In this document: piece by piece, positions 19,401-51,719 of the stretch | Numbering within the stretch: the first letter of the stretch is position 1 | How the letters are laid out: the number at the start of each line of letters is the position of its first letter | Source: Prorocentrum cordatum | Taxonomy: Eukaryota | Direction: 5' to 3' | NCBI GenBank assembly: GCA_963575745.1 | Contig: CAUYUJ010000304.1 | Coordinates: forward strand, 62,001 to 115,651 | Length of the DNA stretch: 53,651 bases | Position numbers and translations under genes: made by a program | Notes under the pieces: generated by a model | Seen by the model: the letters and a program-made list of their open reading frames with translations, nothing else | Databases searched by the model: none | Told to the model about the DNA's origin: nothing

Positions 19401-22400
19401 GATGATAATAGTAGCGATGCTGGCGACGAAGACACTGACGACGGCAGGGCCGATGACGGCGTCGATGCTGGTGATGACGATGATGGTGTCTGCGTGTCGG
19501 CGATGCAGGTTTTGCGGGATTTCGACATGCGCGCGTAGCGGACGGGTGGGTGGGACTAGTTGACCGTGACCAAGCCTTTCCAGCACGCGCGCAAAGGCGT
19601 TCGAATGATTTTGACATGCGCGCGCGAGTGGCCCGTCGCATTTGATGCACATGTTGAAACTCGATGGTTCTTTCAGGATTCGCACGTGCTTGCGCACAGA
19701 CCTTTCGTCCACAACCACGTTGCCATTTCAGATGTTTGTTATACATGTTCGGGGAACTCGGTTTAGGAGCCCCCACGAGACCGATGGTTGCGTTTAAAGA
19801 AATGAAGCATGCACGCGCAGCGACGCGCGCGCGCATGAAGTTCATCACGTTTTTTGCTGCAAAGGGCGATTGAAACTGATGACCCTTGCCGAACGAATGC
19901 GCGCACATAATGCGATTTGACGTGAACGAATGGGGCGTCGATAGTGGCGCGGCTGGCGGGGCGGCGGGACGTCAACTGCACATCCCCAGGGTGTGCGGAT
20001 AATCCTGGGGGGAAGAAATCCTGATTTCTTTTTGGAGGCGGAATATCTCCGGCGTGCAATATATAAGGTGTAATTCACAAATGCCCGCAAAGAGTTGTCA
20101 ACTCCACTGCGCGCGCAATCATCCCACCCGCCCACCCGCAACTCGATTCGCAAAACCCACGCGACGGGGATTGCGATGAGTGCTTGGCGCTGGCTGGTGA
20201 ATGTCTGCGGCCGCGCTAGCCCGCGCGAGCTCGCGCGCGCAGCGGCCAGCTAGTGCGGCGCGACCGACGCGGCCGCGGTGGCGCTGACCTCTGGACACTT
20301 CGCAGGGGGCACTTCAGTGCGAGTCGGTGACGCAGGGGGGCGCGGTATCATGGCGACGCCGACAACAGTAGACCCGACGATGAGAGTAGCGATGACGGGG
20401 ACACCGGCGGCGATGACGACGGCAAGGCCAATGAAGGCGCCGACGTTGATCACGCCCGCCGATAACGACAGCGATGTCCTCGCGTCGGCGATGAAGGTTT
20501 TGGAAGGGGATCGACACGCGCGCGGCCGACGCGCGCGAGTGGCCCGCGCCGCCATTATCTGACACGGGTCGCGACGCCCCCAGCACGCGCGCAAAGGCGC
20601 TCGGATGAGTTCGACACGCGGCGCGAGAGCCCCGTCCGGCAGGATCGGATGAGATTGTTGAAAACCGGTCCCTTGAGACTTCGCACTTCGCGTACGTTTG
20701 TTAAAAATGGCGCTGCGAAACAATGCGCGTTAAGACGTGCTCGGGACACTCGGTTTGGGAAATCCCACGAAGCCTTTGGCTTTTGACAGATTCCGGCACG
20801 CGCGCGCGACGACGACGCGCGCGCACTTCGCCCCATTGTTTGCCACGGACTCTTGCGACAGCACGCGCGCAGAGGGGTTCGAACGATTTCGACACGCGCG
20901 CGCGAGAGGCCCGTTCGGTAGAACGTCGTGAACATGTTGAAAAGCCTGCGGCATTCTGAAAAATACAAGAGCGCGAGCGCAAGCTTGTTTTGAAAACCCT
21001 CGTAATGAAACCATGCGTAAAAAAAAACGCGGCATTCGGTTTTCAAACCCTTACCGAAACCGCAGGTGGCTGAAAGATTTTGGCACGCGCGCGACGTAGC
21101 GCGCGTGCAATTCGACCCGTGTTTAGCAAAGGGATGATTGGAAACTGTTGTTATGTCATAGACGAGTGCGCGCGCATAATATCGCAAGCAGAGGGTGAGG
21201 GAGGAGTCGACACCAGCCCGCCTGCGATGGTAGGACCTCAGATTTAGGATGGTCGACGGGGCAACATCGCACGAAAGTTGGCACACGAAGAACCGGGCGG
21301 TCAAATCCAGGGGGGGGGGTCGATCCCATTGCTCACTGAAGAAGGAGGATCTACTGCGTGGAAAACTATGTTCAGTGAGCTGTCAGATCGATTGCCCGCG
21401 CAAGCATCCCACCTAGCCACTGGCAACTGGGCTTGCACGAGCCCACGCGCCGGCGATTGCGCTGAACGCTGGGCGTCGGTTGGTGCATCTCCGCGGCCAC
21501 GGCCACGGCCACGGCCACGGCCACGGCCACGGCCACGGCCACGGCCACGGCCACGGCCAGCCACGGCCACGGCCGACCACAGGCCACGGCCGCGCTGGTC
21601 GACGCGCACTGCCCGAGCGCGCAGCGGCCTTCCTGGTTCGGCGCGGCCGGCGCGGGGCCGCGGCGGCGCTTTCTTTCCAGCGGGCCCTTCGGTGCGACTC
21701 GGTGACTCGCGGGGGGGCGGGGCAGCACGGCAACGACGTCAGCGGCACTCCAGATATCGTAATAAAAGGGAGGGGGGGTCTCGTTTCGGGGGGGCCTGGG
21801 GGGGTCTGGGGACGATGTTTCGGAGGGTTCTCCCACGGGGGGGGGGTCTGAAATAGCTCGTCTTGGAGGGTCCAGACCCCCTCCCCTTTTATTACGAAAT
21901 CTGGAGTAGACACCAGGACGATCGTAGCAAGGCTGGCGACGAGGACGACCGCGACGACGGCAGGGCCAGCGACGGCGCCGATGCGGATCACGCCGACAAC
22001 GATGACGGCGTCCTCGCGTCGGCGATGAAGGTTTTGGAAGGAGTTCGACATGCGCGCGCGGGGCCGAGGCGCGCGAGTGGCGCGCGCGGCATTATCTGAC
22101 ACGGAGCGCCCCCCCACAGCACGCGCGCAAGGGCGCTGGGATGAGTTCGACATGCGGCGCGAGAAACTCGTTTGGCAGAATTGAACGAAAATGGTCAAGA
22201 ACTGATGATGTTCGTCCGCATTCACAGAAGCGCGAGCGCAGGCTTTTTTTCAAAACTGGCGCTGCAAAGCCATGTTTTTTATGTTTCGGAACATTCGATT
22301 TTGAGATCCCGAAGAAACCTGAAGTGTTTGAAGGATTCCGGCGTGCGCGCGCGACGGCGCGCGCGCGCACTTCGACCCATTCGACTGCAAGGGATTATTG

Positions 22401-27939: not shown

Positions 27940-28585
27940 TACGCGCCATATGTCGGCGAAGACGAACCCATTGTCCTGCGTCGCGCATTTGTCCACCGAA
28001 GCCCTTCTCGGGCGTTGCCAGAACTGGGTTTCGTGGAACCTGGTTTAGTGGTCTGTACCGGGGGCGCCCCCCCGTTCCATTTTCCACTAACCGGAACTGC
28101 CGTCACCCGAAGAAAAAAAACACACCAGCTATGGCAAACCTGGTTTAGTGATTCTGGCTAATTCAAAGGCTCCGGTAAAACGACGCGAAAATCGGGACAA
28201 AATCGGATCGGGATGTTTCGAAATCTCTGAGAATCGGCAGGTTTGGAGGATGTATTGGGCGCCGCGGCCGCTCCAGAGCGTCCCGGAACGCTCTAAGAGC
28301 GCTCCGGAACGCTCTGGAGCGATTTATCCCGATCCTAGCCCTGTTTTATCCGGGGCCCTACCACCAACCGGGTCCCCTCACCTGGGGCCCTGGCCACACC
28401 CGCCCTTCCAGGCGACGCAGGCGGTGCGAGGAGGGCCGGCGCCGGCAGCGTGACCCGTGTGCCGGCGGCGCCCGGGCGGGGTAGCCGCGGACACCGCTCG
28501 GCCATTTTGTATGAGGCGCACGCCCGGAGCAGCACTGGCCGGGCACTCGTGGGAGGCCTCAGCAGCCGCGGGGCAACAGGGGACA

Positions 28586-28616
28586 CCCAGATCATCCGTT
28601 ACCGGAAAAATCCAGG
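28586..28616 (+). repeat. Left TIR of the giant element (CCCAGATCATCCGTTACCGGAAAAATCCAGG)
   Basis: Reverse complement of 51483-51513 with 2 mismatches. Confidence 0.9.
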
Positions 28617-30284
28617 TACGAGCGGGCGCGACCGGTAACGGCGAAATCTAGTGCGTCAGCGGTCGCGACCAGTCGCGACCGACATTGTCAGATTGAAGAT
28701 TCCCGATGATCCGTTACCGATCCGTTACCGACCGTTACCGACCGTTCGACTGATCGATCTGACGATGATCTGACGTCAGATCATTGTCAGACCAACAGTT
28801 CGATCTGACAATGACCATTGTCATATGTATTTCCCGTATGACAATGACCATTGTCAGATATATTTTCAGTCTGACAATGATCATTGTCAGATGACCATTG
28901 TCAGAGGCATTCCTTTCGAGGGGAAGGAGAGGAGGGAAGAGGAAGAGGAAGAGGAAGAGGAGGAGGAGGAGCAGGAGGAGAAGGAGGAGATGATGGCGGT
29001 AAGGAGGAGGAGGGTGAAGATGCGAACGTGCGAACGTAGGTAACGTATCCTGCTCCTCCTCATTCCTCTTATCCCCCTTGTCCATCCCTCCCCAGACGCT
29101 CCTTCAATTCCTCGGACCTCGAAGCACGGGAACTTTCAATTTGTTCCGAGTCGCATCCAGCCGTACAGACGAGGTCGTCAGAAATTGACGTCAAGCGAAA
29201 ACGTGCGAAACCATAGCATTTTAGACAACATCTATCCTCAACTAACCCCTTGTCAGAATTTCGAAGCAAGTCCAGCCGTGACAACAGTCGATGAAGCCAA
29301 AACATGACCATGATTGAAAACTGAGAAAAACAAAATTCCTCGTTCCTCGCTCTGCAGACTGAGACCGCGCATTTTTCACATGCAGCGTGCGCGTCTCGCG
29401 CACCAAGTCGACTGGCACAGAGCCTCTCTCTTGCCCCCCTCGTCCTCTTCCTCAACTTTTTTTCACCTTGATCATCTCACGGCGTAGGCTCCTGTCAATC
29501 CTCTTTCCTCCCCTCCCGTGTCCTCCTGCTCTTGCTTCCCTCTCCTCTTCCTCCTCCTCTTCCTCCCCCTCACTCCCTCCTCCTCCTCCTCCTCCTCCTC
29601 CTCCTCCTCCTCCTCCTCCCTCTCCTCCTCCTCCTCCTCCTCCTCCTCCTCCTCCTCCTCCTCCTCATCATCATCGCTCACCTTCAATCCTGCCTCTATC
29701 TCCGTTCTCCCTGTCCAGCCTCTTTTCCGCGCGTCCCTATCCATCCCCCTATAGAAAAGAGCTGGCCGAGCTGCTGGCTTAGGCTCCAGCCTAGGCCCTA
29801 GGCCGAAACGCTCGAGGAGGAAACCACAGGCGGTGGAGCTGGGAGGTATAGTGAGACTTAACAAAATAAGGTCAGGGAGGAGGAAGGAGAAGAGCATGGA
29901 GATGACGAGGATATCGTGAGGGCGGTAGCATCAATGCAAAGGGTTGCGGACGAAGGGGAAACAGGCCAGGAGAGTTCTCCGAGGACGAATAGAGGAAACG
30001 CTTGGAGGGTGGACGAGGACAGGGGCATGGAGTTGAGAAGGTGTTCCAATTCGAGCTTTTCGGCCTAGCTATTCTCTCTCTCTCTCTCTCTCTCTACTCG
30101 ACGCAGCCGCGGCAATACTGCAAACCCGCTAGCCTTGCGGCCCCCTGGCTGATGCAGAGCTCCTCTCTCTCTTCGTCCCTCGCCGTCGTCTTCCCATGTC
30201 CAACCTTCCCTCCTCCCCCCTTCCTCTCCTTCTCCTTCTCCGCCTTCCTCTCCCCCTCCTTTTTTTGTTGGATTGCATACAATA

Positions 30285-32968
30285 CTATATGCGCAACCAA
30301 AGGGGGGGGGGGGGGCGAAAGTCCAAACTATACCGACCAATGCGCACGCGCTCGCACACCTTCAATGGGACGCTATAGATCGAGGAACCCATGGCACAAC
30401 CTGCGGCAGTCTTGGTTATAAACCGCTGCCAGTCCTCGGGCTGGTAACACCAGACCCAGCGCGGGTTCAGCGGCCCCATTCTAACGAGGTGGTACATCAT
30501 GTGCTGTTTATTTACTAAACTGTATTTAAACCTCACGGGCACGCTGGTCAGAGCTCTTTGGGCAAGGGACTGGTACGTGATCAAGCATCCATCTGCGGCG
30601 GCCCTGAGACGCGAGCTCTCGTCGTCACTCAAAAACATACCACCATTCTGAACGACGTCGTAAAACCGCACCAAATTCTCCACCATCAAAGTGCGGGTCT
30701 TGCCGCCAGGCCCTGCATCCTGGCATTCCCGTGCCAGGACCAAACCCGCGCGCGCCAAGGACCGAACCTCGGCCGCCTTGATGCTGCTTGACAGCGATGG
30801 GAAGCCTGAGTGCGGCGCATCTGGATCCACAATCATTGTAATTTTGAAATTGGACAGCCGATGCTTCAAATCCAACTCTCGGTATATCTCTTGGATGCGC
30901 CCCCAAACTTTGGAGACGCGGGCAGCAATGCTGCCGCGCCCCTCTTCGTAGATAATCTCGTACAGTACATTCGCCACGGCGCGGCTTGCCACGCCGAGGT
31001 CTACTGCGTGCATGATATCCAGGGCAAGCATATACACAGATACACCCCAAACTGAGAACAGGGGATGGTCGGCGTCGAAACCTCGCTCGTGCAGTGTCCA
31101 ATGGCTGGGGCCCCCATCTGGATTTGCAAAATTGTTCCAAGGGTTGTCGCTTTTGTTAGCTGTGCAAAGCCAGCAGAATTTGTCCGACCCTGCAGCTGGC
31201 ATCCCGAGACTCGAGAAATATTCCAAATCTCCCAAAACTGAATGGATAAACGCTCGAAGCGGCTCCTCCCGACTACATAAGAATGTGCCAGCGAGTTGCT
31301 GGCGAGAGGCATCTAAAGGACCGCCTTTCCAATCCACCGCTCCTCAATGAAGAGCCCCCCTCAGGATGCGAGCCCGACCCCTACATCCGGCCACGACGGC
31401 GACGACGACGCCGACGACCTTCGCAACATCCCTGGCGCGCCATAGCCAATGGAAGACAGGGAACACAACTCGCCCGTCCCTGGCCCCCCATCCCGCGAGT
31501 CTCTCTCCTACCACCCTTCACCGAGGCCCCCCATTCCCCAACCCCTTCTGTCTGCGCAATCTCTCCTCATCCTGGAACCCCCTCTGATTTCTAAACCTTC
31601 TACCCCCAGATCATCCCTTATCTCCTCTCCTTTCCATCACACCCCAAAGCCCCTCTCCTCCCCCATCGCCTCCAATCCCATTCCATCCCCAACCCCATCA
31701 CCCTCTCATTTCCCCCCGCGACCCCCCACCCACCTATGTCACGTCGCACCGCTGGCCGCCGAGCCTCCGAGCCGCCAGGCCGGAAGAAGGGGCAAGGGAA
31801 CTAGACGGAATAGGGGTGACATCGGAAGGCGAGGGAAGGGGGCAGGGAGGGGGATGGGAGAGAGCGAGGGGGAGAAAGGGGCCAGGCGAGAGGGAGGAAG
31901 GGGAAGGGCGAGGGAGTGGGAGAAGGACGGGCGCAGTGGAACAGAAGAACCGCACGGAAGGAGCAGGGGGGGGAGAAGAGGACAGCCGAGGTCCAAAGTG
32001 GGGGGGCGGATTTGGCATGACGAAGCCATATTAATCGCGCGTGGGATGCCTGCCCTCGGCCAGGGCGTTGAACGACCATTTTAACATCTCCCAGATTTCG
32101 ACCCAAGTATCCACCCCGTGCCTCGTCCTCTTACAGGAAACACTGAGCGGGCACGAAATTAAATTCAGGGTCAACGCCTTGGTCTTACCCACGGCCCCCA
32201 ATCCCGTCATGGATACTGAAGTACGGGAGTCGTTGCATAAAAATTCGGCTCCGTCCCCGTGGATTCGAAGGGGCACCAAACAATCCTCTCTGGTCTTCTT
32301 GGGGAGCGCCCATGCTGGGTGGTCGCGAAACCGACGGTCTGTCCTGAGATTGTATTATTAAGTGGTAGCGGGGCGCCGGGCAGGTGGAGGGCGCACCATT
32401 TCTATCGTGGGTGGGGCCAAGTCCCTCTCCCATGGATCAAAACCAATACCCCTTCAACTCTCCAGACCCCGACCAGACGAAACAATGTAAACAAAAAAAA
32501 CGCGGTCCTGGATTGGTGCTTCCAGAAGTCGGCCAGCCCGTCCACGGCGAAAACCGTGTCCCACTCGTCGCGATGATGGTGGTACAAATTAGCGAACCAC
32601 TCGTGCGGCAACAACGCGGCGCAATGCATGGGCTTCACGCTCGCACTTTTCTTATCCCACCCTGAAACACTGAAGGTGTACGGTTCGGGCAGATCAGAGT
32701 CGCCGAATGTCCGCATCAAGTCCCGATGGATATTCCCGGGAGTTGCCCCCCACGTGCCCAATGAGGCCAACAGTTGGACCTCTTCGTGACGGAGCCCGTC
32801 CAGGTGTGCTGCGCGGGCCAGCCTTTGCACCTCGGTGGCGGGCACCGCCCCCCATGCCCAGCTCATCAACAACTTAGTTCCCAGTTGAGAAAACTCGGGG
32901 CCACGCGGGAGCCAGGGGATGCGCCTCTGCAACGTCTCCCTCCTCATCGTACGACAAGCGCCCGGCAT
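30285..32968 (-). CDS. CMC (CACTA/Mirage/Chapaev)-like DDE transposase, 3 exons, ~605 aa
   Basis: Exons 32968-32508, 32343-32037 and 31334-30285 join in frame. Motifs in order: LRIHGDG (D1), VLGDLEYF (D2), CWLC (CxxC), LDIMH, KQHMMYH (H-x3-H), WCYQPED (E). This is the CMC/Transib signature order. Intron 1 is GA-AG (164 bp); intron 2 has ambiguous boundaries. Confidence 0.85.
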
Positions 32969-33017
32969 TATGCTTCTTTGGAGGCACGGCTCCAAAGCTT
33001 CTGAGCCCAGGGGGGGC

Positions 33018-33039
33018 CTCGAGCCCCAAAGGCTGGCAC
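33018..33039 (-). other. Possible degenerate relic spliced leader upstream of the transposase
   Basis: Minus strand core AGCCTTTGGGGCTCGAG matches the SL 3' core AGCCATTTTGGCTCAAG at 13/17. It lies ~50 nt upstream of the ATG and just after a 68-nt poly-T. Confidence 0.4.
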
Positions 33040-33042
33040 GTG

Positions 33043-33112
<70 letters not shown>

Positions 33113-33270
33113 AGAAAACGAAAAAAAAACGGGGCCAGGCCGACGAGGGCATCGCGGACTCGGAGACCCGAAAACAATGGAAGGGAGGAGGGGGGAGGCG
33201 AGAGGGTCTGTGGCAATGCAGAAACGGATGACAGCTGTTGTTTTTTTGTGTCGGAGGGGAGGGGGGGTTG

Positions 33271-33306
<36 letters not shown>

Positions 33307-34186
33307 GGGGGGGGGGGGGGAGATATGAGGGAGAGAGGGTGAGTTGGGAGATGGGGGAAGGATCATGAGGGGAGGGGGGAGGGACCAGGCGGCCCAGTCG
33401 CTCGGAGTCCACTGCCCCTGTCGGCCTCGCCCCCTAGTGAGCTGCAGCAGGCGCGTGCAACTGGCGCGCCTACAGACAGAGCACAGGCGGGCACTGGCAC
33501 CTCTCTTGCTCCCTTGCCATGCTGAGAGGGAGGGGGGGGGGAACGGGGGGGGGCAGGGAGGAGGAGGAGAAGGAGGAGGAGTGAGAGGAGGAGGAGGATC
33601 AGGAGGAGGGGAAGGGGTAGGAGGAGGATGGGCCCCCCGCTCATCCTCTTCCCCCTCCTCATCCTCCTCTGTCCTCCTCCTCCTCCTCCTCCTCCTCGCC
33701 CTCATCCTCCCTCATCCTTCCTCTAAGAGGGCGTCTCCTCCTGCCCCTAAGAGGGCGCCTCTAAGAAGGGTGTGTGGGGAGGAAGGGCGGGGGGGGGCCT
33801 TCCTCTGATTTCCCGTCCGCTCTCTTCTTTTCTCCCCCCCCCCCTTCTCGCCCCCCCCCCCCCATGCTCCTCGCCCCTATCCTCATCCTCACCCCCTTAC
33901 TCTTCTCTTATCGTGCCCTCCTCCACGTTCGTGAACTCAGACAAGCCTGACCACTCTTGGAAACGTGCTGTCCGCGGGGTTCTGCCACAGCGCGCGGCGC
34001 GCATGCTGTGTTGTCGGGCGGTGCCTGGCATCGTCTGTGGAAGTGGGCGTCGGGCGCGCGCGCCATGTGCCTGCAATCAACGAGCATTACATGTCCGCGC
34101 CGTGCGAACGAAGGCATGTGCGCGCGCTGGTGCGTGTCACGCGCGCTGCTGTGCCCTCTGCGTGGGCTGCGATGGCAACCTACGAT

Positions 34187-37100
34187 CTACTGGCCGTCGG
34201 TCGGCTCGGAGATCTGCTTGATGGTCAGCAGCTCGATGAACGCAATCTGGAAGGGCAAGATGTTGCTCTTCACCTGCTGGGGCTTCGGCTTCTTCTCCGA
34301 GTCCCAGGCGCCGATGGCGCCGCCGAGCTTCTGGAGCTTCGCCATCACCTGGGCTCAGATGGGCGGCAATGGGCGGCAATGTCCCTCACCGTCCAGTCCC
34401 AGCCCTGCCCCCCGATGATACAGCCATCGGCCTGACCTAAGGAACGGGAAATAAGGAACGAAGCCCCTTTGTGTTCCAAGGAACAATGCATAAGGAACGA
34501 TACATATTGAACAACGCAAACGGAACGATGGATAACGCGTGCAAGTCTAGGGAACGATCGAGCCCCTTTTGAAAGGCAACTGTTCCCTACTCACGCCGCT
34601 CACTGTGCGTCGCTTCCTCCTCCTCCTCCTCCTCCTCCTCCTCGATTTCACCACCACCCCTTCTCACCCGCGCCCCTCTTGACTCCTTGCATCCCTCCTC
34701 ACCCTTTCCTTCCCGCCCCCTCACCCTCCTCGCCCACCTTCGCCGCGCCCTCATCGTTCTCGTTCGCCACTGCCCCCCATCTTTTTCAGCCTTTCCCTAT
34801 CGAAGCGATTCATGGTCTGACGACTGCCTGACGTCAGACCGTCGCCAGATCTCCTGGCGCGTCGTTTCAAGCCACGGCGCGGGCACCCTAACTTGCAACC
34901 TGCCTGATTCGCCCGATCCCCTCATCTGCGCCTGCCCGCCGCTTCCCATTCCCATGCAGTGCCTCTGAGCAGTTCAAGGCTGGACACGCGCGAAAGGGGG
35001 GGGGGGGGGGCGAGGCAGGGGATAGGGGGGGACAGGATGGGGGGGGGAGATAAGGAAAGGAGGAGCAACCTGAGGAGGACAGGGTGGGCAGAGGGAACAC
35101 GGGGAGGGATGCCGAGGAGGGCGAGAGGGAAAGGGTGAGAGCCCCGAGGCAGGGCATGGTTAACCATACATTGCCTTCTTGGCCTGGTGGGCAGACGCTG
35201 GGTTCTTCTGGGCCCACTTGCTGTTGTTGATGTAGCCGCCCACCAGCTCGGTCGCCATCTGTCGCGCCATTTATGCGATCAGAGGGGGGAGGGGCGCGTC
35301 GCTTCTCCTCATCACCCTCCTCCTCCTCCTCCTCCTCCTCCTCCTCTTCATCCTCCTCCTTCTCCTCCTCCTCCTCCGTCTCCTCATCTCCCCCTCCCCC
35401 TTCTCCTCCTCCTCCTCCTCCGTCTCCTCATCTCCTCCTCCTCCTCCTCCCCCTCCTCCTCCTCCTCCTCCTACTCCTCTCCCCCATCCTCTCCCTCCTC
35501 CTTGTCCTGCTCCTCCCCCCCCTCCTTCTCCTTCCCCTTCCCCCCCTCACCCTTCTCTTTGGCAAACAGCGTGGCACTCGGAGAGTTCGGAGCAGGACCG
35601 CAGGGCGGGGGAGTTGGGGGGCACGGGACAGGCAAAGCGAGAACCGCGGGGAGGAGGGATCGGGAATGGCGGCGGAGGGCCACGGGATTGAAGTGGTTGA
35701 GAAACTTAGCGGAGCGAGGTCGGCACGGCGTGGGTTGGGCGAGGGCAAAGGAGCAGATGCAGCGGGAAGTTGGGCGGGGTGGGGAAGCGACGGGTGGAAT
35801 TGAAAAGATTGAGATGGAATAGCGAATTGCACAAACAAAAGTTGGTCCGTGAGGCCCTCGGCGCAAGTGTTGGCGGCGATGCCGACGTCGTCGTTGTTCT
35901 TGAGGTCGGCCACCTTGATGAGCTGGATCTGAGCGGTCTGCTTCTTGAGGTTGTCCAGCTTCGACGTCTGAGAAGCAGAAACGAGAGGGGGGGGAGGGCG
36001 AGCTGGTTCTGACATATCGAACTGCGTACAGGCTGGCTCGCTTGGCGTTTCGATAAGGCGTCGCAGCAAGCTGAATCCGCCGAAAAGCCCCAGGCGCGCA
36101 GCAGGGATTGCACAATGTGGAAGTGGTGGCTGCGAAGGACAGGCTGGGCGAGGAGGGATTTGAGGCATCTGTTTTTGCAGGACTAGGGTGGCCAATTTGC
36201 GCTCGGCACCGATGTCCATAGACGCTGACTCTCGGACACGGACACATCAAGTCACAGGGCGGGTAATGGGGGATGGTGGCTTCTGAATTGGGGAAATGTG
36301 ACGTGTATCAAGCCGCGCCCACGGAGGTTTCTGAGTCCGACGACGGATATGCGCTGGGAGGGCGGCGGGCAGCGAGGGGGGGGGGGAGGCCGAGGAGGAG
36401 GGCGAGGGGTGGAGATTACATGGGGAGAAGGAGCACGGGATGAGGCGAGGGAGGTGGAAGCAGAGAAGGGACGAGGAGGAGGAGCACTCGTGCGATGGCA
36501 CATCCCCCAGGATGAGAGGGGGGGTGGAGCGCGGGGCAGGGGCGCATAGGGGGAGAGGTACATGGGAGGAGTGGCACATGTAGGAGAGGAGAAGGAAAAC
36601 AATGCACATCCCCCAATCATCCCTTGCGATGAGCTGCCTTCTGGCGCTTGCTCGCGTTCTCCTCTGTAGCTGACCCGCGCCCTCGTCCGCGTCCGCGGCC
36701 CCTGCCTCCTCCCCCGCCGTCTGCACGGCCATCAAGCAGGGCGGCGTGCTTGGCCCCGCTCTCCACGTCAAGGCCCATGGCAGACATCCCACCTTCGGTC
36801 GCAATATACCAAACCCCCCTGGCATTCGCACTCATTTCCCGAATGTGCACAGGAAGTCGCGTCAGAAGACCTCCCGAGCATCTCAGACAAGATGTTCAGG
36901 CGTTCGTTTCCAGAGAACCGTTGTCACCATCATAGCGCCTTCGTTTCCAGATCGACGCTTCCCGAAGGCAGCCCTCCAGGTCAAATCGGAAGCTTGGCTC
37001 CAGAATGCCATGGGGGACTCGGGCGCAGTGGCGAGTTTCGCTACTCCCGATTTCGCAATAAACGGGAGGGGGTCTGGACCCTCCAAGACAAGCCATTTCA

Positions 37101-39345
37101 GACCCCTCCTGTGGGGGAACCCTCCAAAACATCGTCCCCAGACCCCCCAGGCCCTCCAAGATAACCTGGAAGAGACCCCCTTCCCGAAATGAGACCCCCC
37201 TCACTTTATTGCGAAATCTGGAGTAGCAAATGACGAAGAGGAAGAGTTTGATTGGCATGCTGTAGCGCCATGATTTCGAATGGGCGCTGCAGGGAGAGGG
37301 GGGTGAGGGAGGAGGATGAGGAGGAGGAGAAGGATGATCAGGTCGGGAGGGATGATGAGAATTGGTAGGGGGGAGGAGGATGAGGAGAATGAGGAGGAGG
37401 AGGAGGAGGAAGAGGGGGAGGTTGAAGGCACGGCACAACCAAATGATCAGTGCGATACGCTGTAAGTACACTGCCACCATATGCAGCGCGGTCCTGAGTC
37501 ATGTGGAACCGCTCCATCCCTTCGATGGCGCCGTCGAACTCCTCATCGTTGGCCGTCCCGCTGCGAGTGGCAGTCAGCTGCTTCCCGCGGCCGAACTTCT
37601 TGACGTGCCGATCCTCCTTCGCCTGGTACTGCAGCCTCTTCGGGTTGTCGGGGTTGGGCCGCGTCTGTTGGCGTGCTTCATGTTTCAAATTGTTTCGATG
37701 CAGGCATGTCGACATCACGCCCGAATCACCCCATAAACTTCTTGGGTCGACAACCGACCGTACCTCGGGCCACTTCGGGCCACGCCAAACTGAACACCCA
37801 ACCAGCTGCAAACGATCGCGGTACAATGAAACCAAAAGAACACACTAGCGGTGGTTATGACGCAAAGCGTTGGAAACATACAGCGCATCAAAGCAATGCA
37901 AAAGGAAGAGAACAAAAACAAGCTGGCTTCACCAAGTCCTCCGCGATCATCTCCTCGCCCTCAGACTCCCCGAAGACCTCGAAGAACTGCTTCTTCGCGA
38001 GCCACTTGCTCTCGCGCGACATCTCCTCCGCCCAGTGGATCGTCGCGGTGACGGCCATGAACTTCTCCCCGAGCTGCGGGTCCATGCTGTAGGCGGCCAG
38101 CATCTTCGCCTTCGTCTCGTACTTGCTGGCGCCCGTGACCTTCCCCTCCTCGACCGCGCTCCACTGGCTCTGCGCCTCCTGGCTGGAGTTGCGGGCCGTC
38201 TTGAACCTGCCGTAGAGCGCCCTGGGAGAAGCTTGGTTCAAGACCAACAATGGCAGCCGTCTATCATATCCCCATTCGTCTACCCGCCGTGAGATGCGCC
38301 CAGTGGGCCTCGCAGCGGCAATGCTGCCACGACAGCGCCTTCCAACGCTCAAACCATGCATCGGCTGCCCATGAAACTAGAACATGCACCCCCAGTGAAA
38401 TTCTTAGTGACGTTTTTTGCACGCTGACAACCACTTCGGGAAAACGTGCATACCCGATCACGCAACGGCGGCAATACATCGATGGAGATGCAATCAACAC
38501 ACTGACGCTTCACGAGAAATGTGAAAAAGAGAAAGCGATGCCTGATCTCCGCTGGCGAGAAGATCTGCTTGACCGTCTCGAGGTCGGTGACGTCCCCGTG
38601 GTCGCTTGGAGCATTTTTTGAAATGCAACAAGGTCTGCAATCATGGCCCACGTTGTCTACAATGCCCTTGGCCCACCCATGATCCCGCTGCCTGTGTGTC
38701 TCTCGTGCTGCAACATCACCCTCGTCCTCGCCATCAACGCAAGAACGTTCTCACCATCATCCTCATCCTCATCCTCATCATCATCCTCATCATCCTGTGT
38801 CTCATCGTCGTTCTGCATGCGCACTTCTGCACAACACTAGTCCTCGTCGTCGGCGCGAGACCGAAAAACCAAACAAAAAAACATGGCTGTCCGAAAGATC
38901 TCCATCTTCTCGTCGGTGCTCTTGCCCTTGGTCGAGGCGAGGAGCTTATCCCTGCTCCACCTCGGGGCCGCAGTTATATGAACGGGCCACGACTCGCCAG
39001 CGCCACGGGGAGGAGGATGAGGAGGAGTTGGAACAGGGGGGGAGAGGGGGGGGATGAGGAGGAGGAGATGGGGGGGAGAATACGAGAAGGAGGCGGGCAC
39101 GATAGGTCAGGTGATGAGGGGTGGGGGGGAGCAGGGCGGCAGGCATGACAAGCCAGATTGGCATTAGGACGGTGGTCCATACCCTGTATGTTTTCACATG
39201 GCAATTGTGCCAGACACACCCGAACAAAATGCTGAGGTGGGGGTGGGCCGTGGTTTTTTTCCATCGGCCACTTCGCAGCCGAAGCCGATGCAGCTGCAGG
39301 ACGTCGCAGCACAGCATCTCCAGTGCGCTTCTGCTTCGGCGGCAT
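34187..39345 (-). CDS. Element gene B: multi-exon protein of unknown function (~370-395 aa; basic N-terminus, helical core, RG-repeat linker)
   Basis: Phase-consistent exons 39345-39272, 38960-38892, 38604-38542, 38221-37933, 37664-37510, 36818-36638, 35967-35857, optional 34979-34900 and 34348-34187. Donors are GT/GA/GC with AG acceptors; the last junction needs either a GG donor or the optional exon. Translation MPPKQKRTGDAVLRRPAA...SKWLAKKQFFEVFGESEGEEMI...RPNPDNPKRLQY...GRGRGRGRG...QISEPTDGQ*. Codons are GC3-rich. Confidence 0.7.
37044..37223. mobile_element. MITE family B copy (opposite orientation) in an intron of gene B
   Basis: Same TIRs with a perfect TA/TA TSD. Confidence 0.85.
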
Positions 39346-39694
39346 CGCAGCCCGAAAAGGAAAAAGGTCGGGCCCCTCGCCAGAAGAGAGATGCCTCGGA
39401 GCCTGGAGCGCGAAGCGAGGCGAGCATGGGATACTCACTAGTTTGGGATCACGCCACCAACTTGTTATTTACACAACGCTGACATCACATACAATCGCTG
39501 AATTCAAAACACCAAATTGCCGTTCAAAAATATGCGACTTAATCAGCTACGGTGTGTTAGCGTGTGTTATACATTGTCTGCTCAATGGTGTATTCCTGTG
39601 ACAGTTGACATGTTTGGGCTCAAACTATATCAAAACACACCGAAACATTACAGAACAATTGAAATTGAGAATGACCTGGCGCCAGGTCAGTGCA

Positions 39695-39845
39695 ATATCA
39701 TTGATCTGACAATGATCTGACGACAGACCATTGTCAGATGCATGGTCTGACAATGGTCTGACAATGCCTGACGCCAGGCATTGTCAGATCATTGTAAGAT
39801 CATCGATCTGACAATGATCTGACGTCAGATCATTGTCAGATCACC
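39695..39845. repeat. Internal cluster of the element's palindrome, including a perfect 38-bp palindrome at 39805-39842
   Basis: GATCTGACAATGATCTGACGTCAGATCATTGTCAGATC. Confidence 0.9.
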
Positions 39846-40686
39846 ATGTTCTGCTATATTTGAACCACCACTGCCTATAGCCTGAAACATGCTACAAATG
39901 TGATGGGGAACCAATCAAATTCATTCAATAAAATGTGACATACTATATCAACGACTCGCTGTTACGGTTACGTAGGTTGAATGATTATTGTAGCTGCTGA
40001 TCAAACCTACTCGAAAAATACATTACAAAACATAGAATGTCGTACATATTATTATCCAAACAGCGCTTGGCTAGTTCCCCAGACAGTGCTTGACACTGCA
40101 AAACATAACTCGCCAAACAGACTACATCGCAATATTGAACTGACGAACGTATCTTTCTCACAGATCTCTCGAACATCGATCGCTTGACTTCTTTGGCACG
40201 TTGTGACATTCAATCGGCCTGACTGGGCGAAGTGTGCTGGTGGTGCAACATAATGGTAGAACCTGGTATCCCCTCCTCAGATCCCCCTCCTCATTCTCAT
40301 CCTCCCTCCTTCCCCCTAAGCCTCCTCCTTACATCGAATAGCTGAGCTATGTCTTTACATCAAAACGCAATTCGAGACCGACAGAACATCGCAAATACCA
40401 CAGACCATATGCAGAGTTCGGCTCGTCTGATCATGACCTTCTGGCAGACAACGCGCCAGCGGCGAACGAGCGCACTGATAAGGGGCGGAGGGAGGGTGGA
40501 TATCCCCTGTCATTCTTCTGAGTCAAGCCCTCGCCCTCCTCCTCCTCCTCCTCCTCCCCCCATCACCCTTATCCTCATCGCCCCCCTCCGCGTCCTCATC
40601 GCGCGACTTCTAACGCAATAAATTCCGACGTCGCGCGCCGACCTTCCGACGCGCACGGCTCAAATTAATGGTGACATGTCTCGAGC

Positions 40687-44700: not shown

Positions 44701-44870
44701 GCCGAGCCGCCGTCCTCGTCGGAGTCCAACCCGCACAGGTCGGAGCCCATGCCGAGGTGCTGCGCGTCGGCTGGAGCGGCCTGCCCGCGCCCCATGGCAA
44801 CGCGCGCGCCAGGCGCAGCCGCGGCGACCGCCGCCATGGCCGCAGGAGGTGTCACGCCCAGAGGAGACAT
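41738..44870 (-). CDS. Element gene C: acidic, low-complexity N-terminal part plus a compact C-terminal domain; function unknown
   Basis: Exons 44870-44271 (GT donor), 43926-~43630 (3' end uncertain), 42604-42488 (GC donor) and 42031-41738. C-terminus reads LGLLKMVYASKKTYMTYTDPETSKPRLFIEVNENQTEDH..RKRLLRK*. A relic SL lies 35 nt upstream of the ATG. Confidence 0.6.
42710..42895. mobile_element. MITE family B copy in an intron of gene C
   Basis: Same TIRs with CA/TA flanks. Confidence 0.85.
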
Positions 44871-44905
44871 CGTGACGGGCGGCAAAAGCCACAAAGGTCT
44901 CCGAC

Positions 44906-44927
44906 CTGAAGCCCAAATGGCTACAGA
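44906..44927 (-). other. Relic dinoflagellate spliced leader upstream of gene C
   Basis: Minus strand TCTGTAGCCATTTGGGCTTCAG matches DinoSL at 18/22. Confidence 0.75.
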
Positions 44928-45737
44928 TGCGAAACGGCGAGCGCCACACGGCGGGGGGGGGCTCAGAGATGACCCAAGATGTTTCCCACATGCCAAATAC
45001 GTTTCTGTGATGGCCACGGTGGCTCAAGATCATCTTGACCACATCGGCCATCTCAGCCAGACGCATCTTGAGTCAAGATGCGTCTGGATGAGATGGCCGA
45101 GATGTTTCCAGGGTGGCTCACTATGCTGAGGGAAGCGGATAGAGCGGCTCAAGATGCTTATGGGATAACCCAATATGACCAAAACAATGCTAGGAGCGCA
45201 AGACGAACTGCTTTTCTCACGCGAATGTGTCCAGGGCCCCAGGGTGGCGCAATGTTCGAACAACGGTGTCACAGACCTCAGATGGTGGAAAACGCTAGCG
45301 CCTGTGGGCGCCAGCATGGTTTCGGGCACTGTCCTGCACCCCCCCCGCCCCCCATCTCCCCCAACCCCACTGGGGGGGACGGGGAGCTGGGGGGGGGAAG
45401 GGGGGAGGGGGGGGGGGAAGGGAAGAAGGAATACGAGGAATAGGGTGACTAGGAGGAGAAGCTAGGGGTGAGGGGGAGAGGAGAAATATGCTGGGGGGGG
45501 AGCCAGCCCCCCTTGGACTGCCAGCCTGTGGACTGGGAGGGGGCGATTGGGGGCCGCGCTTCAGGCGCTCCCCCTGGCCCACCCCCACACGCGCACAAAC
45601 AACCCAAGTGAGGAGGCTGCTGCTCCTCCTCCTCATCCTTCTCCTCCTCCCCCTCCCTCCCTTTCCCCCCCCATCCCTCCTCTGTTCCTCCTCCTCATAT
45701 TCCTCCTACCCCTCATCCTCGTCATGCTAATCCACCC

Positions 45738-47363: not shown

Positions 47364-49871
47364 CCCCCCCCCCCACTCCTCCTCCTCCCCTCTCCTCCTC
47401 CTCCATCGCTTCCCCGCGCGCGCCAGCCCTTTTCCGAATTCAAGCTCCATCCTCCGCATCTCCCTCATTATTCCCCTCCTTCTCTCCCCCTCCCCATCCC
47501 TCTTCCCGCCCCTCCTCCTCGCCCTCGCCCCCCTCACCCCACCCCACTCCCTCCCCCACCCCCACCCCTCCTCTCCAAGTCAAAGCTCCTGCCACCTCAT
47601 CCTCCCGTCCCTTAGAAGTTCTAACCTAGGCAACGTGAAGCACGCCCCCGATCCCCCTGCTGCCGTCCAACCTAGTCGCCTCCTCCTGCGGGCGGAATGG
47701 AGGGTGCGGGGCGTGTCCTCAGCATAGTGTTCTCGTCATCTGGGACACCCAGCATGTGCAGCACGTACATCAACCTCTCGGCCTCCCTGCGCAAGCAGCC
47801 TGCCAGGGCCTCGTTGGGAACTGGAGAAGTTAACGGCCTCCACCATCCTCCCTCCGCCCTCCTTCTTCCTCTCCCTACTTCCTCCTCTTCCCTATTCCTT
47901 CTCCATCTCCCTACCTCCGTCCCCACCCATCCCCGATCCTCTCACATCCAAGTTCATTCCTACTTATCCACCTCCTCCTCCACCTCCTCCTCCGTCTCCT
48001 CTCTCCCCTCCCACCCCCCCTCCCACCCTTCTGCCGTCGCCGTCGTTGACGCCGAAGTCGACGTCCTCATCGCCGAACTATCGCCATCGTGATCGTGGCC
48101 ATTTCGGGCACCCGAGTGCCTGCCGTCGCCTCGTCGGGTTGTCCCTGATGCGCCTGCAGTGTTTCAGCAGGCAGCTAATCTTGTCTGCGAAGCTCGACGC
48201 ACGCTTCACCAGCGGGCCAGGAGGCTCTCGCCCCACTGTGGGGTGCCTCGGAAAGGGGTGCAATAGGGCACCCCGCAGTCATTCCCCTGTCCTCACTGCG
48301 CTCCTCCTCCGTCCTCCGCCTCCTTCTCCTCCTCCTCATTCCCCCCTTCCTCCCCCCTCTTTCTCCTCCACCTCATCCCTCCGCCGCTTCCTTTTCATCA
48401 TTCCTCGCCACTCTGCGATCTGACGACCGTCTGACGTCAGACGATCGTCAGATCTGCATGTGTGATCTGACAACCGTCTGACGTCAGACGATTGTCAGAC
48501 ATGTGTGTGCGACCTGACAACCGTCTGACGTCAGACGATCGTCAGACATGAGTGTGCGATCTGACGAACGTCTGACGTCAGACGATCGTCAGATCTGCGT
48601 TTGCGACCTGACAACCGTCTGACGTCAGACGATCGCCAGATCTGAGTGTGCGATCTGACGACCGTTTGGCGTCTGACGATCGCCAGATCTGTGTTTGCGA
48701 CCTGACAACCGTCTGACGCGAGACGATCGTCAGATCCAGATTTGCGCCGCGACTACAGTCGATCGTCAGACGATCGAAGATGAGGTGATGAGGGGTGAGG
48801 ATTAGATTTCGAAACAGGAGGAGAGAGGATGGGACAAGCGGATCAGGAACGGAGGGAGGGGGGGGGGGGGGCGGAGCAGGAGGAGAGAAGGAGGAACCAA
48901 GAGAGATGAAGGAGGAGGAATACGTCTGCTGGAAAAAATCATGTTTTGAAAATCTCTGCTTCTCGTCATCCTCCTCTTCCTGATCTCATCCTTATCCTCC
49001 TCGTTCGCTGTCGGAGCCTCTGCAATGCCATCTCCATGGCAGCGCGGAGCTCGACGAAACTGATGTCCGCCTCGGGGCTAGCGTTCAGCAGGATCTCCAA
49101 CTGGGCGGATGCCCCTCCCCCCCCAAAAAAAAAAAAACAACAGCAACATGCTCCACTGTCTGGATTAATTTCAGGGCCCCCGGAGAGCTTTAGGGCACCG
49201 CGAAAATTCCAGAACCTTGGACCGCAGTTTTTTATGAAACAGTTTTCCAGGAGCCAAGATTCGCCGTCGGGCCCTGATTCCCCTGGAGGCAGTAACGCAT
49301 TCGCAGGCCCTCAAATCTGAAGACGCCTTGCGATGAGGGGGAGGAGGAGGAGGAGGCTGAGCAGAAACACGAGGCGGAGGAGGACGATAGAGCGGAGAAG
49401 GATGGAGGAGGAGGACGGGAGAAGGAGGAGGTCCCGCCCGAGGCTGATCCTCCTCATCATCATCACCATCATCATCATCAGCAGCAGCATGATCATTATC
49501 ATCATCATCATCATCACCATCATCATCACCATCATCATCACCATCACCATCATTATCACCATCATCATCAACAATCAGCTCTTATTGTTTTCCTGTCCGT
49601 CTTTCTGCTGCACTCCCGCTTCTCTCCTGATCCGCTTTCTCGCGCCTCCTCGCACGCTCTCCTCTCGCCCCCCCTCTCCCCCCCATGGGCAGCCAGCCAC
49701 CAAGCTGTCCAGCTGCGCAAGGCTCGGGCCATGCACGGCATGGTCTTTGTGGAGGTGGAAGTATTGGCCCAACCGAAACGCACCCCTCACCCCCTCGGAG
49801 TCTACGTACGAAAGGAGGGCCTGCCCGAGGGACGTCGGGTCACCGTCGCCCTCGAAGGGCGGGCAGGCCAT
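45738..49871 (-). CDS. Element gene D: helical N-terminal domain plus a 7-aa tandem-repeat tail; function unknown
   Basis: Phase-consistent exons 49871-49701, 49100-49018, 48246-48120, 47809-47718, 46620-46564 and a last exon starting at 46056 or 46061. Donors are GT, GC, GC, GA, GT. Translation MACPPFEGDGD...FRLGQY...LDSLLEILLNASP...LLKHCRRIRDNP.... A relic SL lies 56 nt upstream of the ATG. The 3' end and final frame are uncertain. Confidence 0.65.
45805..46025 (-). repeat. 21-bp coding-type tandem repeat (~10 units)
   Basis: GGTTCATCACGTGGAGCCCTT units; they encode (PRDEPRA)n or (LHVMNQG)n on the minus strand. Confidence 0.9.
48414..48781. repeat. 47-bp tandem array of palindromic units (TCTGAC..TCTGACGTCAGA..GTCAGA), 7 full plus 1 degenerate
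   Basis: Direct reading; same core as the giant element's subterminal palindromes. Confidence 0.9.
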
Positions 49872-50910: not shown

Positions 50911-51482
50911 ACAGCATCGCCACCATCGTCATCAACAACATCACATTAATCATCAAAACAGTCAGGAGTAATGAGTATCTCTTCGTCGTAGTTTCATTCA
51001 TCACCGACGGCGTGAATCGTCATCCATTCCTCCTCCCTTCTCCTCTGCTTCCCTCCTCACTCTTCTCACCCCCGTTCCCTCCACCCCTCTCTTTTCCCTT
51101 CGTACACAAAGTGCGCGAAGCTACCCTGGCAAGGGATAGGCAGAAAGAAAAGGAGAGGCGCGATGCAGAAGGATGATAGGGGGAGGAGGGATGCGAAGAA
51201 GAGGAGAATGCAGAGGAGGAGGAGGAGGAAAATGACGTCTGACAATGATCTGACGTCAGATCGGTGTGGGAATGCTCAGTCTGACAATGATCTGACGTCA
51301 GATCATTGTCAGATTTCAAGTTCGGAAGCATTGTCAGATCAGAACAGGCTCGCGAACCATGCCAAACTCATACAACAACCGACCGTTACCGACCGCGACC
51401 GACCGAGACCGTTACCGATCGCGACCGCCGTTACCGGTCGCGACCGGTCGCGACCGGAGCGCGACCGTCGCGACCGGTCGCG

Positions 51483-51513
51483 CCTGGATTTTTCCAGTGA
51501 CGGATGATCTGGG
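51483..51513 (-). repeat. Right TIR of the giant element (reverse complement CCCAGATCATCCGTCACTGGAAAAATCCAGG)
   Basis: Reverse complement of 28586-28616 with 2 mismatches. Confidence 0.9.
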
Positions 51514-51719
51514 TCCTCCCACTCCGGCTCTCTCTCCTCCTGATCTTCCTCCTCCCCCTGCAGCGTGTTCCGGAAGGCTCCCGCCGGAACATGCTGTGCA
51601 CAAGTGCTGTCACTGCTCCCGCCACCGCGCCCTGGGTGGTGGGTCAGAGGCCTCATGGGTGGTGGTTTGGATCTCGTGGTTGGCCTGTCGGGGACGTCGT
51701 GAAGGCAGTTTCGCAGCTT

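What the first reader, a model, noticed from the sequence alone, without database searches (positions are those of the whole stretch)
30285..32968. Intact intron-containing CMC/Transib-like DDE transposase
The spliced model gives ~605 aa with no internal stop. The catalytic D (HGDG), D (GDLEY) and E (QPED) are present with the CxxC, MH and H-x3-H motifs that characterise CMC and Transib/RAG1-type enzymes. Intact catalytic motifs plus near-identical TIRs suggest a recently active or still competent element.
Basis: partly seen in the sequence, partly recalled or inferred. Interest (0 to 1): 0.7.

Follow-up and report, generated by a model that had tools for sequence, protein, structure and literature searches.

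The report
Intact RAG1-fold transposase gene, two introns
This is an unbroken, intron-split gene for a cut-and-paste transposase shaped like the antibody-gene recombinase RAG1; it belongs to a large unnamed family of marine protists and is a fairly ordinary mobile-element gene.

Summary
The gene is real. Three minus-strand exons (32968-32502, 32343-32039, 31342-30288) splice into a 609-codon frame with only its terminal stop. That frame matches a profile of 60 full-length relatives end to end (E 5e-178). Intron 1 is GT-AG (158 nt). Intron 2 (696 nt) needs a GC donor. The D, D, E, CxxC, DxxH and HxxxH residues sit in the family's invariant columns.

A full-length relative folds with pLDDT 95. 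Its best solved matches are RAG1 and RAG-like cores (Z 12.6-16.0, about 450 residues), ahead of P element and HzTransib. No Pfam model and no PDB sequence matches. I therefore place it in the CMCT clade (EnSpm, Mirage, Chapaev, Transib, Plavaka and others), in no named lineage.

No inverted repeats flank the gene closely. One pair (28/30, then 45/52) lies at 28585 and 51514, with matching subterminal repeat arrays, and may bound a 22.9-kb element. I found no target-site duplication and no second copy, and no RNA data could be listed, so activity is untested.

Earlier notes of this scan report other RAG1-fold transposons on other DNA of the same genome.

The parts
32502..32968 (-). Exon 1, from the ATG at 32968. 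N-terminal helical part, aligned by structure to the RAG1 dimerisation/DNA-binding and pre-RNase H region.
   Evidence: Profile positions 12-156, E 1e-42. The ATG aligns with the start M found in 87% of 60 relatives.
32344..32501 (-). Intron 1, 158 nt, GT..AG. A GA donor 6 nt upstream scores slightly higher, so the boundary is uncertain by 2 codons.
32039..32343 (-). Exon 2: first half of the RNase H-like core with catalytic D186 (HGDG, 32255-32253).
   Evidence: Profile positions 157-257, E 2e-25. This D is invariant in 60 of 60 relatives.
31343..32038 (-). Intron 2, 696 nt, GC..AG, low-complexity (pyrimidine-rich then purine-rich). If retained, the frame stops at TAA 32033-32031.
   Evidence: None of the 12 best of 37 open in-frame donor/acceptor pairs uses GT. 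The acceptor could also lie 3 nt downstream, with an equal score.
30285..31342 (-). Exon 3 plus stop codon. Holds D296 (GDLEY), C314/C317 (CWLC), D366/H369 (DIMH), the helical insertion domain, H538/H542, E560 (QPED) and the C-terminal helices.
   Evidence: Profile positions 256-591, E 6e-99. Own model pLDDT 92.0. RAG1 chains head its Foldseek list, best E 2e-3. Residue coordinates.
28585..28636 (+). Candidate left terminal inverted repeat. With base 28584 it reads CACCCAG, then 13 nt, then GGAAAAATC.
   Evidence: 45 of 52 against 51514-51464. The 30-nt pattern occurs twice in the window and 0 times in 100 shuffles.
51464..51514 (-). Candidate right terminal inverted repeat.
28637..28905 (.). 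Left subterminal repeats: GGTCGCGACC, CCGTTACCG/CGGTAACGG and CTGACAATGATCTGACGTCAGATCATTGTCAG-type palindromes.
51237..51463 (.). Right subterminal repeats: the same three motif kinds, in the same order reading inward.
39705..39840 (.). Internal cluster of the same palindromes, without the terminal 30-mer.
48414..48776 (.). Internal 47-bp tandem array (about 7.7 copies) of a related palindrome with the CTGACGTCAG core. A single related copy lies at 34813-34851.

Best explanation
The locus is an intact nuclear gene for a DDE cut-and-paste transposase with the RAG1/Transib-type architecture. That architecture is an N-terminal helical DNA-binding/dimerisation part, then an RNase H-like core carrying D186 and D296, then a large helical insertion held by a Cys2-His2 site (C314, C317, H538, H542), with E560 on the following helix.

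Shown:
- the open spliced frame;
- end-to-end membership in a family of at least 1630 sequence clusters;
- retention of the catalytic and metal-site residues;
- the RAG1-like fold.

Inferred:
- the two introns are removed by the spliceosome (GT-AG and GC-AG);
- the protein dimerises on the ends of its element, nicks them, and moves the DNA by the hairpin route known for RAG and Transib;
- the element is the 22.9-kb segment 28585-51514, bounded by a 52-nt inverted repeat and marked throughout by palindromic repeats that may be binding sites.

Within the CMCT clade it fits no named lineage by sequence.
For: Gene and family:
- 1630 relatives at E<=1e-3, 603 at E<=1e-10 and 39 at E<=1e-30 among 1.84 billion cluster representatives. 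Typical length is about 600 aa.
- The three exons are collinear on the profile, and the spliced frame scores E 5e-178.
- 52 of the 56 columns that are at least 80% conserved are kept in the window copy.
- D, D, C, C, D, H, K, H, H and E are nearly invariant across the 63 rows of A1 (60 relatives plus the 3 window exons).

Fold:
- Relative P0004 (37% identical to the spliced protein) models at pLDDT 95.3, pTM 0.93.
- Foldseek gives 39 matches at E<=1e-3, and all those listed are RAG1.
- An all-against-48161-chains search gives 8 chains with Z>=8: RAG1 15.0, 14.9, 14.2 and 12.3, BbRAGL 14.6, P element 10.3, HzTransib 9.7, ISCth4 8.2. The RAG1 alignment covers model residues 7-594 against RAG1 460-1005. 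The second look agrees.
- The window's own exon 3 model is headed by RAG1 chains.

Context:
- The motif signature equals that of the CMCT clade (PMC12730594, passages).
- GC and GA donors are normal in dinoflagellates (PMC12584245, passages).

Element:
- The inverted repeat and its subterminal arrays.
- 10 of 10 CTGACGTCAG sites in the window lie inside 28585-51514.
Against: - No sequence-level link to any named transposase family. Pfam gave 0 transposase families for the 3 exons, for 15 relatives and for all 63 rows of A1. PDB sequences gave nothing better than E 0.37, and none of those hits was a transposase.
- The full fold evidence comes from a 37%-identical relative. The window's exon 3 alone reached only E 2e-3, with 0 matches at E<=1e-3.
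- No target-site duplication at the candidate ends (and direct reading).
- The right end starts with G where the left has C.
- The ends lie 22.9 kb apart, with two unrelated MITE copies and much low-complexity DNA between them.
- Pfam recognised no other gene in 102 flanking ORF pieces.
- Only one copy of the gene is in the window.
- The 10 palindrome sites form only 5 clusters, so their confinement to the segment is weak statistics.
- Intron 2 needs a non-GT donor and is unverified.
Confidence: 0.8

Rival explanations
1. The gene is intact but immobile: a transposase-derived host gene or a stranded autonomous gene. The inverted repeat at 28585/51514 belongs to some other, non-autonomous repeat family whose two copies or ends merely lie either side of it.
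For: - No target-site duplication, and 22.9 kb between the ends.
- A third palindrome cluster at 39705-39840 lacks the terminal 30-mer, so such clusters can occur away from an end.
- The termini do not read CACTA or CACAATG.
- Small ORFs with high GC at third codon positions, which look like ordinary genes, lie inside the segment at 34187-34354 and about 35150-35262.
Against: - The two ends face each other and share the terminal 30-mer (28/30) plus three motif kinds in the same inward order.
- All 10 CTGACGTCAG sites of the 53.6-kb window lie within the segment.
- The family has at least 1630 diverged clusters, which is typical of mobile elements.
- Earlier notes of this scan describe 11-16-kb multi-gene elements with RAG1-fold transposases in the same genome (unchecked here).
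Confidence: 0.3
2. The copy is dead. The 696-nt low-complexity block is an insertion rather than an intron, so translation stops at TAA 32033-32031 and only a truncated protein of about 260 residues could be made.
For: - No GT donor is available.
- The block is simple-sequence DNA of a kind that fills the whole window.
- No RNA evidence exists.
Against: - A GC..AG pair sits exactly where removal restores the frame. It also restores the family's usual 17-residue spacing between the HP and LAG motifs (and my reading).
- 351 further codons downstream stay open and keep every conserved residue. That is unlikely if they were untranslated for long.
- GC donors are normal in dinoflagellates (PMC12584245, passages).
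Confidence: 0.12
3. The ORFs are chance open frames in GC-rich DNA.
For: Long spurious ORFs are common in this window: 133 ORFs of at least 150 aa.
Against: Profile E-values of 6e-99, 1e-42 and 2e-25 in collinear order, and a 64%-identical protein from elsewhere.
Confidence: 0.01

Closest known systems
CMCT clade of DDE transposons (EnSpm/CACTA, Mirage, Chapaev, Transib, Plavaka, ESTA, Lanisha, plus RAG1), as defined by Kojima 2025, PMC12730594 (passages read)
   Same: - D-D-E triad, with C(2)C after the second D, a further conserved H, and H(3)H before the E.
- RAG1-like fold.
- Long insertion domain: 264 residues from the second D to the E.
- Subterminal repeats, as in CACTA elements.
   Different: - No sequence model of any named lineage matches.
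- The candidate terminus reads (C)ACCCAG..., not CACTA or CACAATG.
- No 2-5 bp duplication was seen.
- The candidate element is 22.9 kb.
RAG1 core and RAG1-like transposase of amphioxus (PDB 4wwx, 5zdz, 6b40 and others)
   Same: - Best structural match: Z 12.6-16.0, about 450 aligned residues spanning RAG1 460-1005.
- The Cys2 and His2 residues sit about 18 residues after the second D and 18 before the E. As I recall, the mouse RAG1 residues D708, C727/C730 and H937/H942, E962 show similar spacing; this was not checked in any call.
   Different: - 9-12% identity in the structural alignments, and no HMMER match.
- The match does not extend to the RAG1 region before residue 456.
- No RAG2-like (kelch) gene was recognised nearby by Pfam.
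Transib (HzTransib, PDB 6pqn and others; consensus TIR CACAATG - 23 bp - AAAAAAATC and 5-bp TSD, Kapitonov and Jurka 2005, PMC1131882, passages)
   Same: - Same fold class.
- The left end can be read as a CAC-heptamer, a spacer and an A-rich nonamer ending in ATC.
- The two mismatches inside the first 33 nt fall in the spacer.
   Different: - The structural score is lower than for RAG1 (Z 8.9-10.0, rmsd 7.5-9.6).
- The spacer is 13 nt, not 23.
- No 5-bp duplication.
- The right end starts with G.
- The bipartite reading rests on a single pair of ends.
Plavaka transposases (Pfam PF18759)
   Same: Nearest named cluster in the protein-language-model search (score 0.90, 146 shared features). This is a lead only.
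   Different: PF18759 matches 0 of the 63 rows of A1.

Membership tests
CMCT clade (Kojima 2025) | Catalytic D, D, E on an RNase H-like core | tested here: met
   D186, D296 and E560 fall in columns that are 100%, 100% and 98% conserved among 60 relatives. The fold matches RAG1, P element and integrase cores.
CMCT clade (Kojima 2025) | [quoted passage not shown] | tested here: met
   CWLC lies 18 residues after D296. H538-x3-H542 lies 18 residues before E560. H369 (DIMH) is in a 100% conserved column. The feature definition comes from PMC12730594, passages.
CMCT clade (Kojima 2025) | Termini 5'-CA..TG-3' and 2-5 bp target-site duplication | tested here: inconclusive
   The left end can start CAC at 28584 and the right end starts GAC. 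No direct repeat of 2-10 bp flanks the pair. There is only one pair and no other copies.
Transib superfamily | Detectable sequence similarity to Transib/RAG1 core | tested here: not met
   A profile of the 63 rows of A1 against all PDB sequences gave 5 hits, all at E>=0.37 and none a transposase. Foldseek and VIA-align retrieved RAG1, BbRAGL and HzTransib chains from the held PDB structure library. Pfam gave 0 of 63 rows matching any RAG1 family.
Transib superfamily | 5-bp TSD and TIR of the CACAATG-spacer-nonamer type | tested here: inconclusive
   A heptamer/nonamer-like reading is possible at 28584-28612, but with a 13-nt spacer and no 5-bp duplication.
CMC: EnSpm/CACTA | Tnp2-type transposase sequence and CACTA termini with 3-bp TSD | tested here: not met
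   No Pfam transposase family matches in 63 rows of A1. The termini do not read CACTA. Subterminal repeats are present.
RAG-like (RAGL) transposons | Adjacent RAG2-like kelch-repeat gene | tested here: inconclusive
   Pfam recognised no kelch or RAG2 domain in 102 ORF pieces of at least 90 aa between 23952 and 53649. Short exons would be missed.

The most novel reading that the evidence does not exclude
The gene is the autonomous transposase of a 22.9-kb element whose ends are built like recombination signal sequences: a CAC-heptamer, a 13-nt spacer and an A-rich nonamer. It belongs to a very large protist lineage that is structurally nearer to RAG1 than the insect Transib is. If so, it is a deep, unnamed sister of the RAG/Transib line that could inform how heptamer-nonamer recognition arose.
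Probability: 0.12. Interest if true: 0.7.

Novelty: new variant of a known kind. Interest (0 to 1): 0.4.

Why it matters
It adds a well-supported intact example to a very large family of RAG1-fold transposases: at least 1630 clusters at 50% identity. Pfam does not cover that family, and I could not find it described for dinoflagellates or related protists in the papers searched.

Such families bear on the deep history of the RAG/Transib/CACTA group. They also help explain the repeat load of giant protist genomes.

For this scan it is not a first. Earlier notes report other RAG1-fold multi-gene transposons on other DNA of the same genome, so the added value is modest. What is new here is a different sub-lineage, different termini and a GC-AG intron.

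Tried and rejected
- Whole genome: none is held, so copy number, empty sites and dN/dS could not be done.
- RNA: no RNA holder was listed for 30285-32968.
- Related loci: the metagenome scan with a 3-sequence alignment gave 157 pattern matches, none confirmed. The viral scan gave 64 pattern matches, none confirmed.
- Exact-pattern scans: the terminal 30-mer in viral contigs and a 25-nt palindrome in metagenome contigs each found 0.
- Second copy in the window: none by blastn or by the family profile.
- Close inverted repeats: blastn, seed-and-extend and register scans within about 8 kb found only low-complexity DNA, palindromes and MITEs. The wider scan added only the 28585/51514 pair.
- Names for relatives: only three carry an organism label. 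These are the EukProt labels 'Pyramimonas sp.' and 'Alexandrium andersonii', and NCBI 'Symbiodinium sp. CCMP2592'. Ten clusters looked up carried no name. The profile word search added little.
- Viral structure library: 0 matches at E<=1e-3.
- Language-model search of the 460-aa ORF 43644-45023: no usable hit.
- A recalled dinoflagellate spliced-leader motif: 0 matches for the long form. The short form gave 3 against 1.85 expected. This window therefore gives no direct proof of a dinoflagellate origin.
- Yuan and Wessler 2011 (PMC3093488) is not held. I cite it only through Kojima 2025.
- A dimer prediction was not sent, because two chains exceed the size limit.

Full report
OBSERVATION

The region 30285-32968 holds three long minus-strand ORFs. 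I took 60 full-length relatives (560-720 aa) found by an exhaustive search with exon 3 and built a profile of 601 positions.

I ran that profile over all 1453 stop-to-stop ORF pieces of the window. It hit exactly three, in collinear order:
- 32405-33433, profile positions 12-156, E 1e-42;
- 32034-32354, profile positions 157-257, E 2e-25;
- 30288-31343, profile positions 256-591, E 6e-99.

Nothing else in the 53.6 kb matches, so the window holds one copy.

GENE MODEL

The exons are 32968-32502, 32343-32039 and 31342-30288, with the stop at 30287-30285. Joined inside a script, they give 1830 nt and 609 codons with only the terminal stop. The product gives a single profile hit at positions 13-591, E 5e-178.

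Intron 1 is 158 nt and GT..AG. Intron 2 is 696 nt and GC..AG.

I enumerated every GT, GC, GA or AT donor and every AG acceptor near both junctions.
- Intron 2: 37 pairs keep the frame open. The best four use the GC donor at 32038 or an AT donor at 32035. No GT donor is among the best 12. The acceptor at 31344-31343 and the one 3 nt downstream score alike.
- Intron 1: the GT donor at 32501 scores 579.0. A GA donor 6 nt upstream scores 583.4, so that junction is uncertain by two codons.

A paper on Amphidinium carterae reports GC and GA donors as usual for dinoflagellates (PMC12584245, passages). With the chosen sites, the distance between the conserved HP and LAG motifs is 17 residues, as in the family consensus (my count).

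No RNA run could be listed, so splicing remains inferred.

CONSERVATION

Among the 60 full-length relatives, 56 alignment columns are at least 80% conserved. The window copy has the consensus residue at 52 of them.

The nearly invariant residues of the family are all present:
- D186 (HGDG) and D296 (GDLEY);
- C314 and C317 (CWLC);
- D366 and H369 (DIMH);
- K536, H538 and H542;
- E560 (QPED).

The second D to the first C is 18 residues, H542 to E560 is 18, and the second D to the E is 264.

FAMILY

The exhaustive search found 1630 cluster representatives at E<=1e-3, 603 at E<=1e-10 and 39 at E<=1e-30. Most full-length members are about 590-630 aa.

The closest relatives are P0151 (64% identity; a EukProt record labelled Pyramimonas sp.) and P0001 (59%). 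The full-length relatives are 30-37% identical. Other labelled members come from Alexandrium andersonii and Symbiodinium sp. CCMP2592. Ten further clusters carry no name.

Pfam recognises nothing:
- 0 families for the three exons at E up to 10;
- only two chance hits among 15 relatives;
- for all 63 rows of alignment A1, 22 families matched by one member each, best E 0.005, none a transposase family.

The sequence searches against the PDB also gave nothing. There were 0 hits for exon 3. The profile gave 5 hits, all at E>=0.37, none a transposase.

FOLD

I therefore folded the relative P0004 (594 aa, 37% identical to the spliced product) with alignment A1. The model has pLDDT 95.3 and pTM 0.93.

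Foldseek against the PDB gave 39 matches at E<=1e-3. All the listed ones are RAG1 core chains (best E 6e-6, TM up to 0.51). BbRAGL and HzTransib follow at E 5e-3, and P element at 3e-2.

An independent alignment to 48161 representative chains gave 8 with Z>=8:
- RAG1: 15.0, 14.9, 14.2 and 12.3;
- BbRAGL: 14.6;
- P element transposase: 10.3;
- HzTransib: 9.7;
- ISCth4: 8.2.

The next rows, at Z 7.6 and below, are unrelated helical bundles. The RAG1 alignment covers 448 residues, model 7-594 against RAG1 460-1005.

The second look over Foldseek's best chains (997 aligned) gave RAG1 12.6-16.0 over 30 entries, BbRAGL 14.6, P element 10.9, HzTransib 8.9-10.0 and Hermes 5.3.

The window's own exon 3 (351 aa, alignment A5) models at pLDDT 92.0. 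RAG1 and BbRAGL chains fill its Foldseek list down to rank 37. The best E is only 2e-3, and there are no matches at E<=1e-3. That is expected for a piece that lacks the first half of the RNase H core.

A protein-language-model search named Plavaka (0.90) and RAG1 (0.87) as the nearest annotated clusters. These are leads only.

CLASSIFICATION

Kojima 2025 (PMC12730594, passages) makes three points:
- He names this group the CMCT clade.
- He gives 5'-CA..TG-3' termini and 2-5 bp duplications as usual for it.

The present protein meets the protein-level features. It matches no named lineage by sequence, so I file it in the clade and in no lineage.

RAG-like and Transib elements are already known from protists and one bacterium (Tao 2022, PMC9435367, part 1 of the text). 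A 2026 preprint notes that true Transib transposases also lack InterPro hits but match RAG1 by HHpred (10.64898/2026.08.26.747230, passages). I could not run that test.

ELEMENT BOUNDARIES

Within about 8 kb of the gene I found no inverted repeat with a flanking duplication. There was only low-complexity DNA, palindromes and MITE copies.

Comparing three clusters of a palindromic motif showed that the clusters at 28.6 kb and 51.4 kb share more than the palindromes. A terminal stretch at 28585-28636 pairs with 51514-51464 at 45 of 52. A 30-nt degenerate pattern built from the two outer ends (Y at the two positions where they differ, hence 28 of 30) occurs exactly twice in the window. It occurs 0 times in 100 shuffles.

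Reading inward, both ends continue with GGTCGCGACC repeats, then CCGTTACCG/CGGTAACGG repeats, then palindromes with a CTGACGTCAG core.

All 10 CTGACGTCAG sites of the window lie inside 28585-51514. They form five clusters, including a 47-bp tandem array at 48414-48776.

This makes a 22.9-kb element plausible, with the transposase gene 1.7 kb from its left end.

Against it:
- There is no target-site duplication.
- The cluster at 39705-39840 has no terminal 30-mer.
- Two unrelated MITE copies lie inside the segment.
- Pfam recognised no further gene.

LEAD ON THE ENDS

With base 28584 included, the left end reads CACCCAG, then 13 nt, then GGAAAAATC. Within the first 33 nt the two ends differ only at position 1 and at two spacer positions.

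Kapitonov and Jurka 2005 give the Transib consensus as CACAATG, a 23-bp spacer and AAAAAAATC (PMC1131882, passages). With one pair of ends, this resemblance cannot be told from chance.

MECHANISM

Shown: an open, conserved gene with a RAG1-type catalytic architecture.

Inferred from the families it resembles:
- a dimer binds the element ends;
- the D-D-E site nicks them and forms hairpins on the flanking DNA, as RAG and Transib do;
- the Cys2-His2 site holds the insertion domain in place;
- the palindromic repeats may be extra binding sites.

CONTEXT IN THIS SCAN

Earlier notes on other pieces of the same genome describe RAG1-fold, multi-gene DNA transposons of 11.6-15.6 kb. Two of them have CTGAG termini and TA duplications. 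They were judged to be new branches of the CMCT clade (unchecked by me).

A look-up by sequence found no look-alike of this gene or of its ends in earlier windows. This is therefore another sub-lineage with different ends.

Those notes call the organism a dinoflagellate. This window holds no spliced-leader relic, so I did not confirm that here.

VERDICT

This is a real, intact, intron-split transposase gene of the RAG1/Transib/CACTA clade, in an unnamed family. The evidence for an element around it is moderate, and there is no evidence yet on activity. Interest is moderate to low, 0.4.

Noticed in passing
window 21747-21907, 37055-37220, 42709-42896: Three copies of a 160-190-bp MITE with its own terminal inverted repeats (ACTCCAGATTTCGTAATAAAAGGGAGGGGG type). 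Two of the copies lie inside the candidate 22.9-kb element.
   Followed up: partly
window 48414-48776: A 47-bp tandem array (about 7.7 copies, 83-85% matches) of a palindrome with a CTGACGTCAG core. It is related to the subterminal palindromes at 28.7, 39.8 and 51.3 kb and to a single copy at 34813-34851.
   Followed up: partly
window 33043-33129 and 33256-33320: An 87-nt A run and a 65-nt G run lie 75-350 nt upstream of the transposase start codon; they read as T and C runs on the coding strand. The whole window is unusually rich in homopolymer and CTC/GAG-type simple sequence.
   Followed up: no
window 34187-34354 (-) and about 35150-35262 (-): Two short ORFs with a start codon, a stop codon and high GC at third codon positions. 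They look like ordinary small genes or exons. Pfam had no match for the first; the second was scanned only within a larger ORF piece (34925-35278), which had none.
   Followed up: partly
window 39300-40100: An AT-richer island (about 50% GC against about 60% around it) holds the internal palindrome cluster. It has no recognisable terminus.
   Followed up: no
window 45805-46025: A 21-bp tandem repeat (10.5 copies) that reads as a repeated heptapeptide in both strands' ORFs. It lies next to long G, C and TG runs at 46.1-47.4 kb.
   Followed up: no
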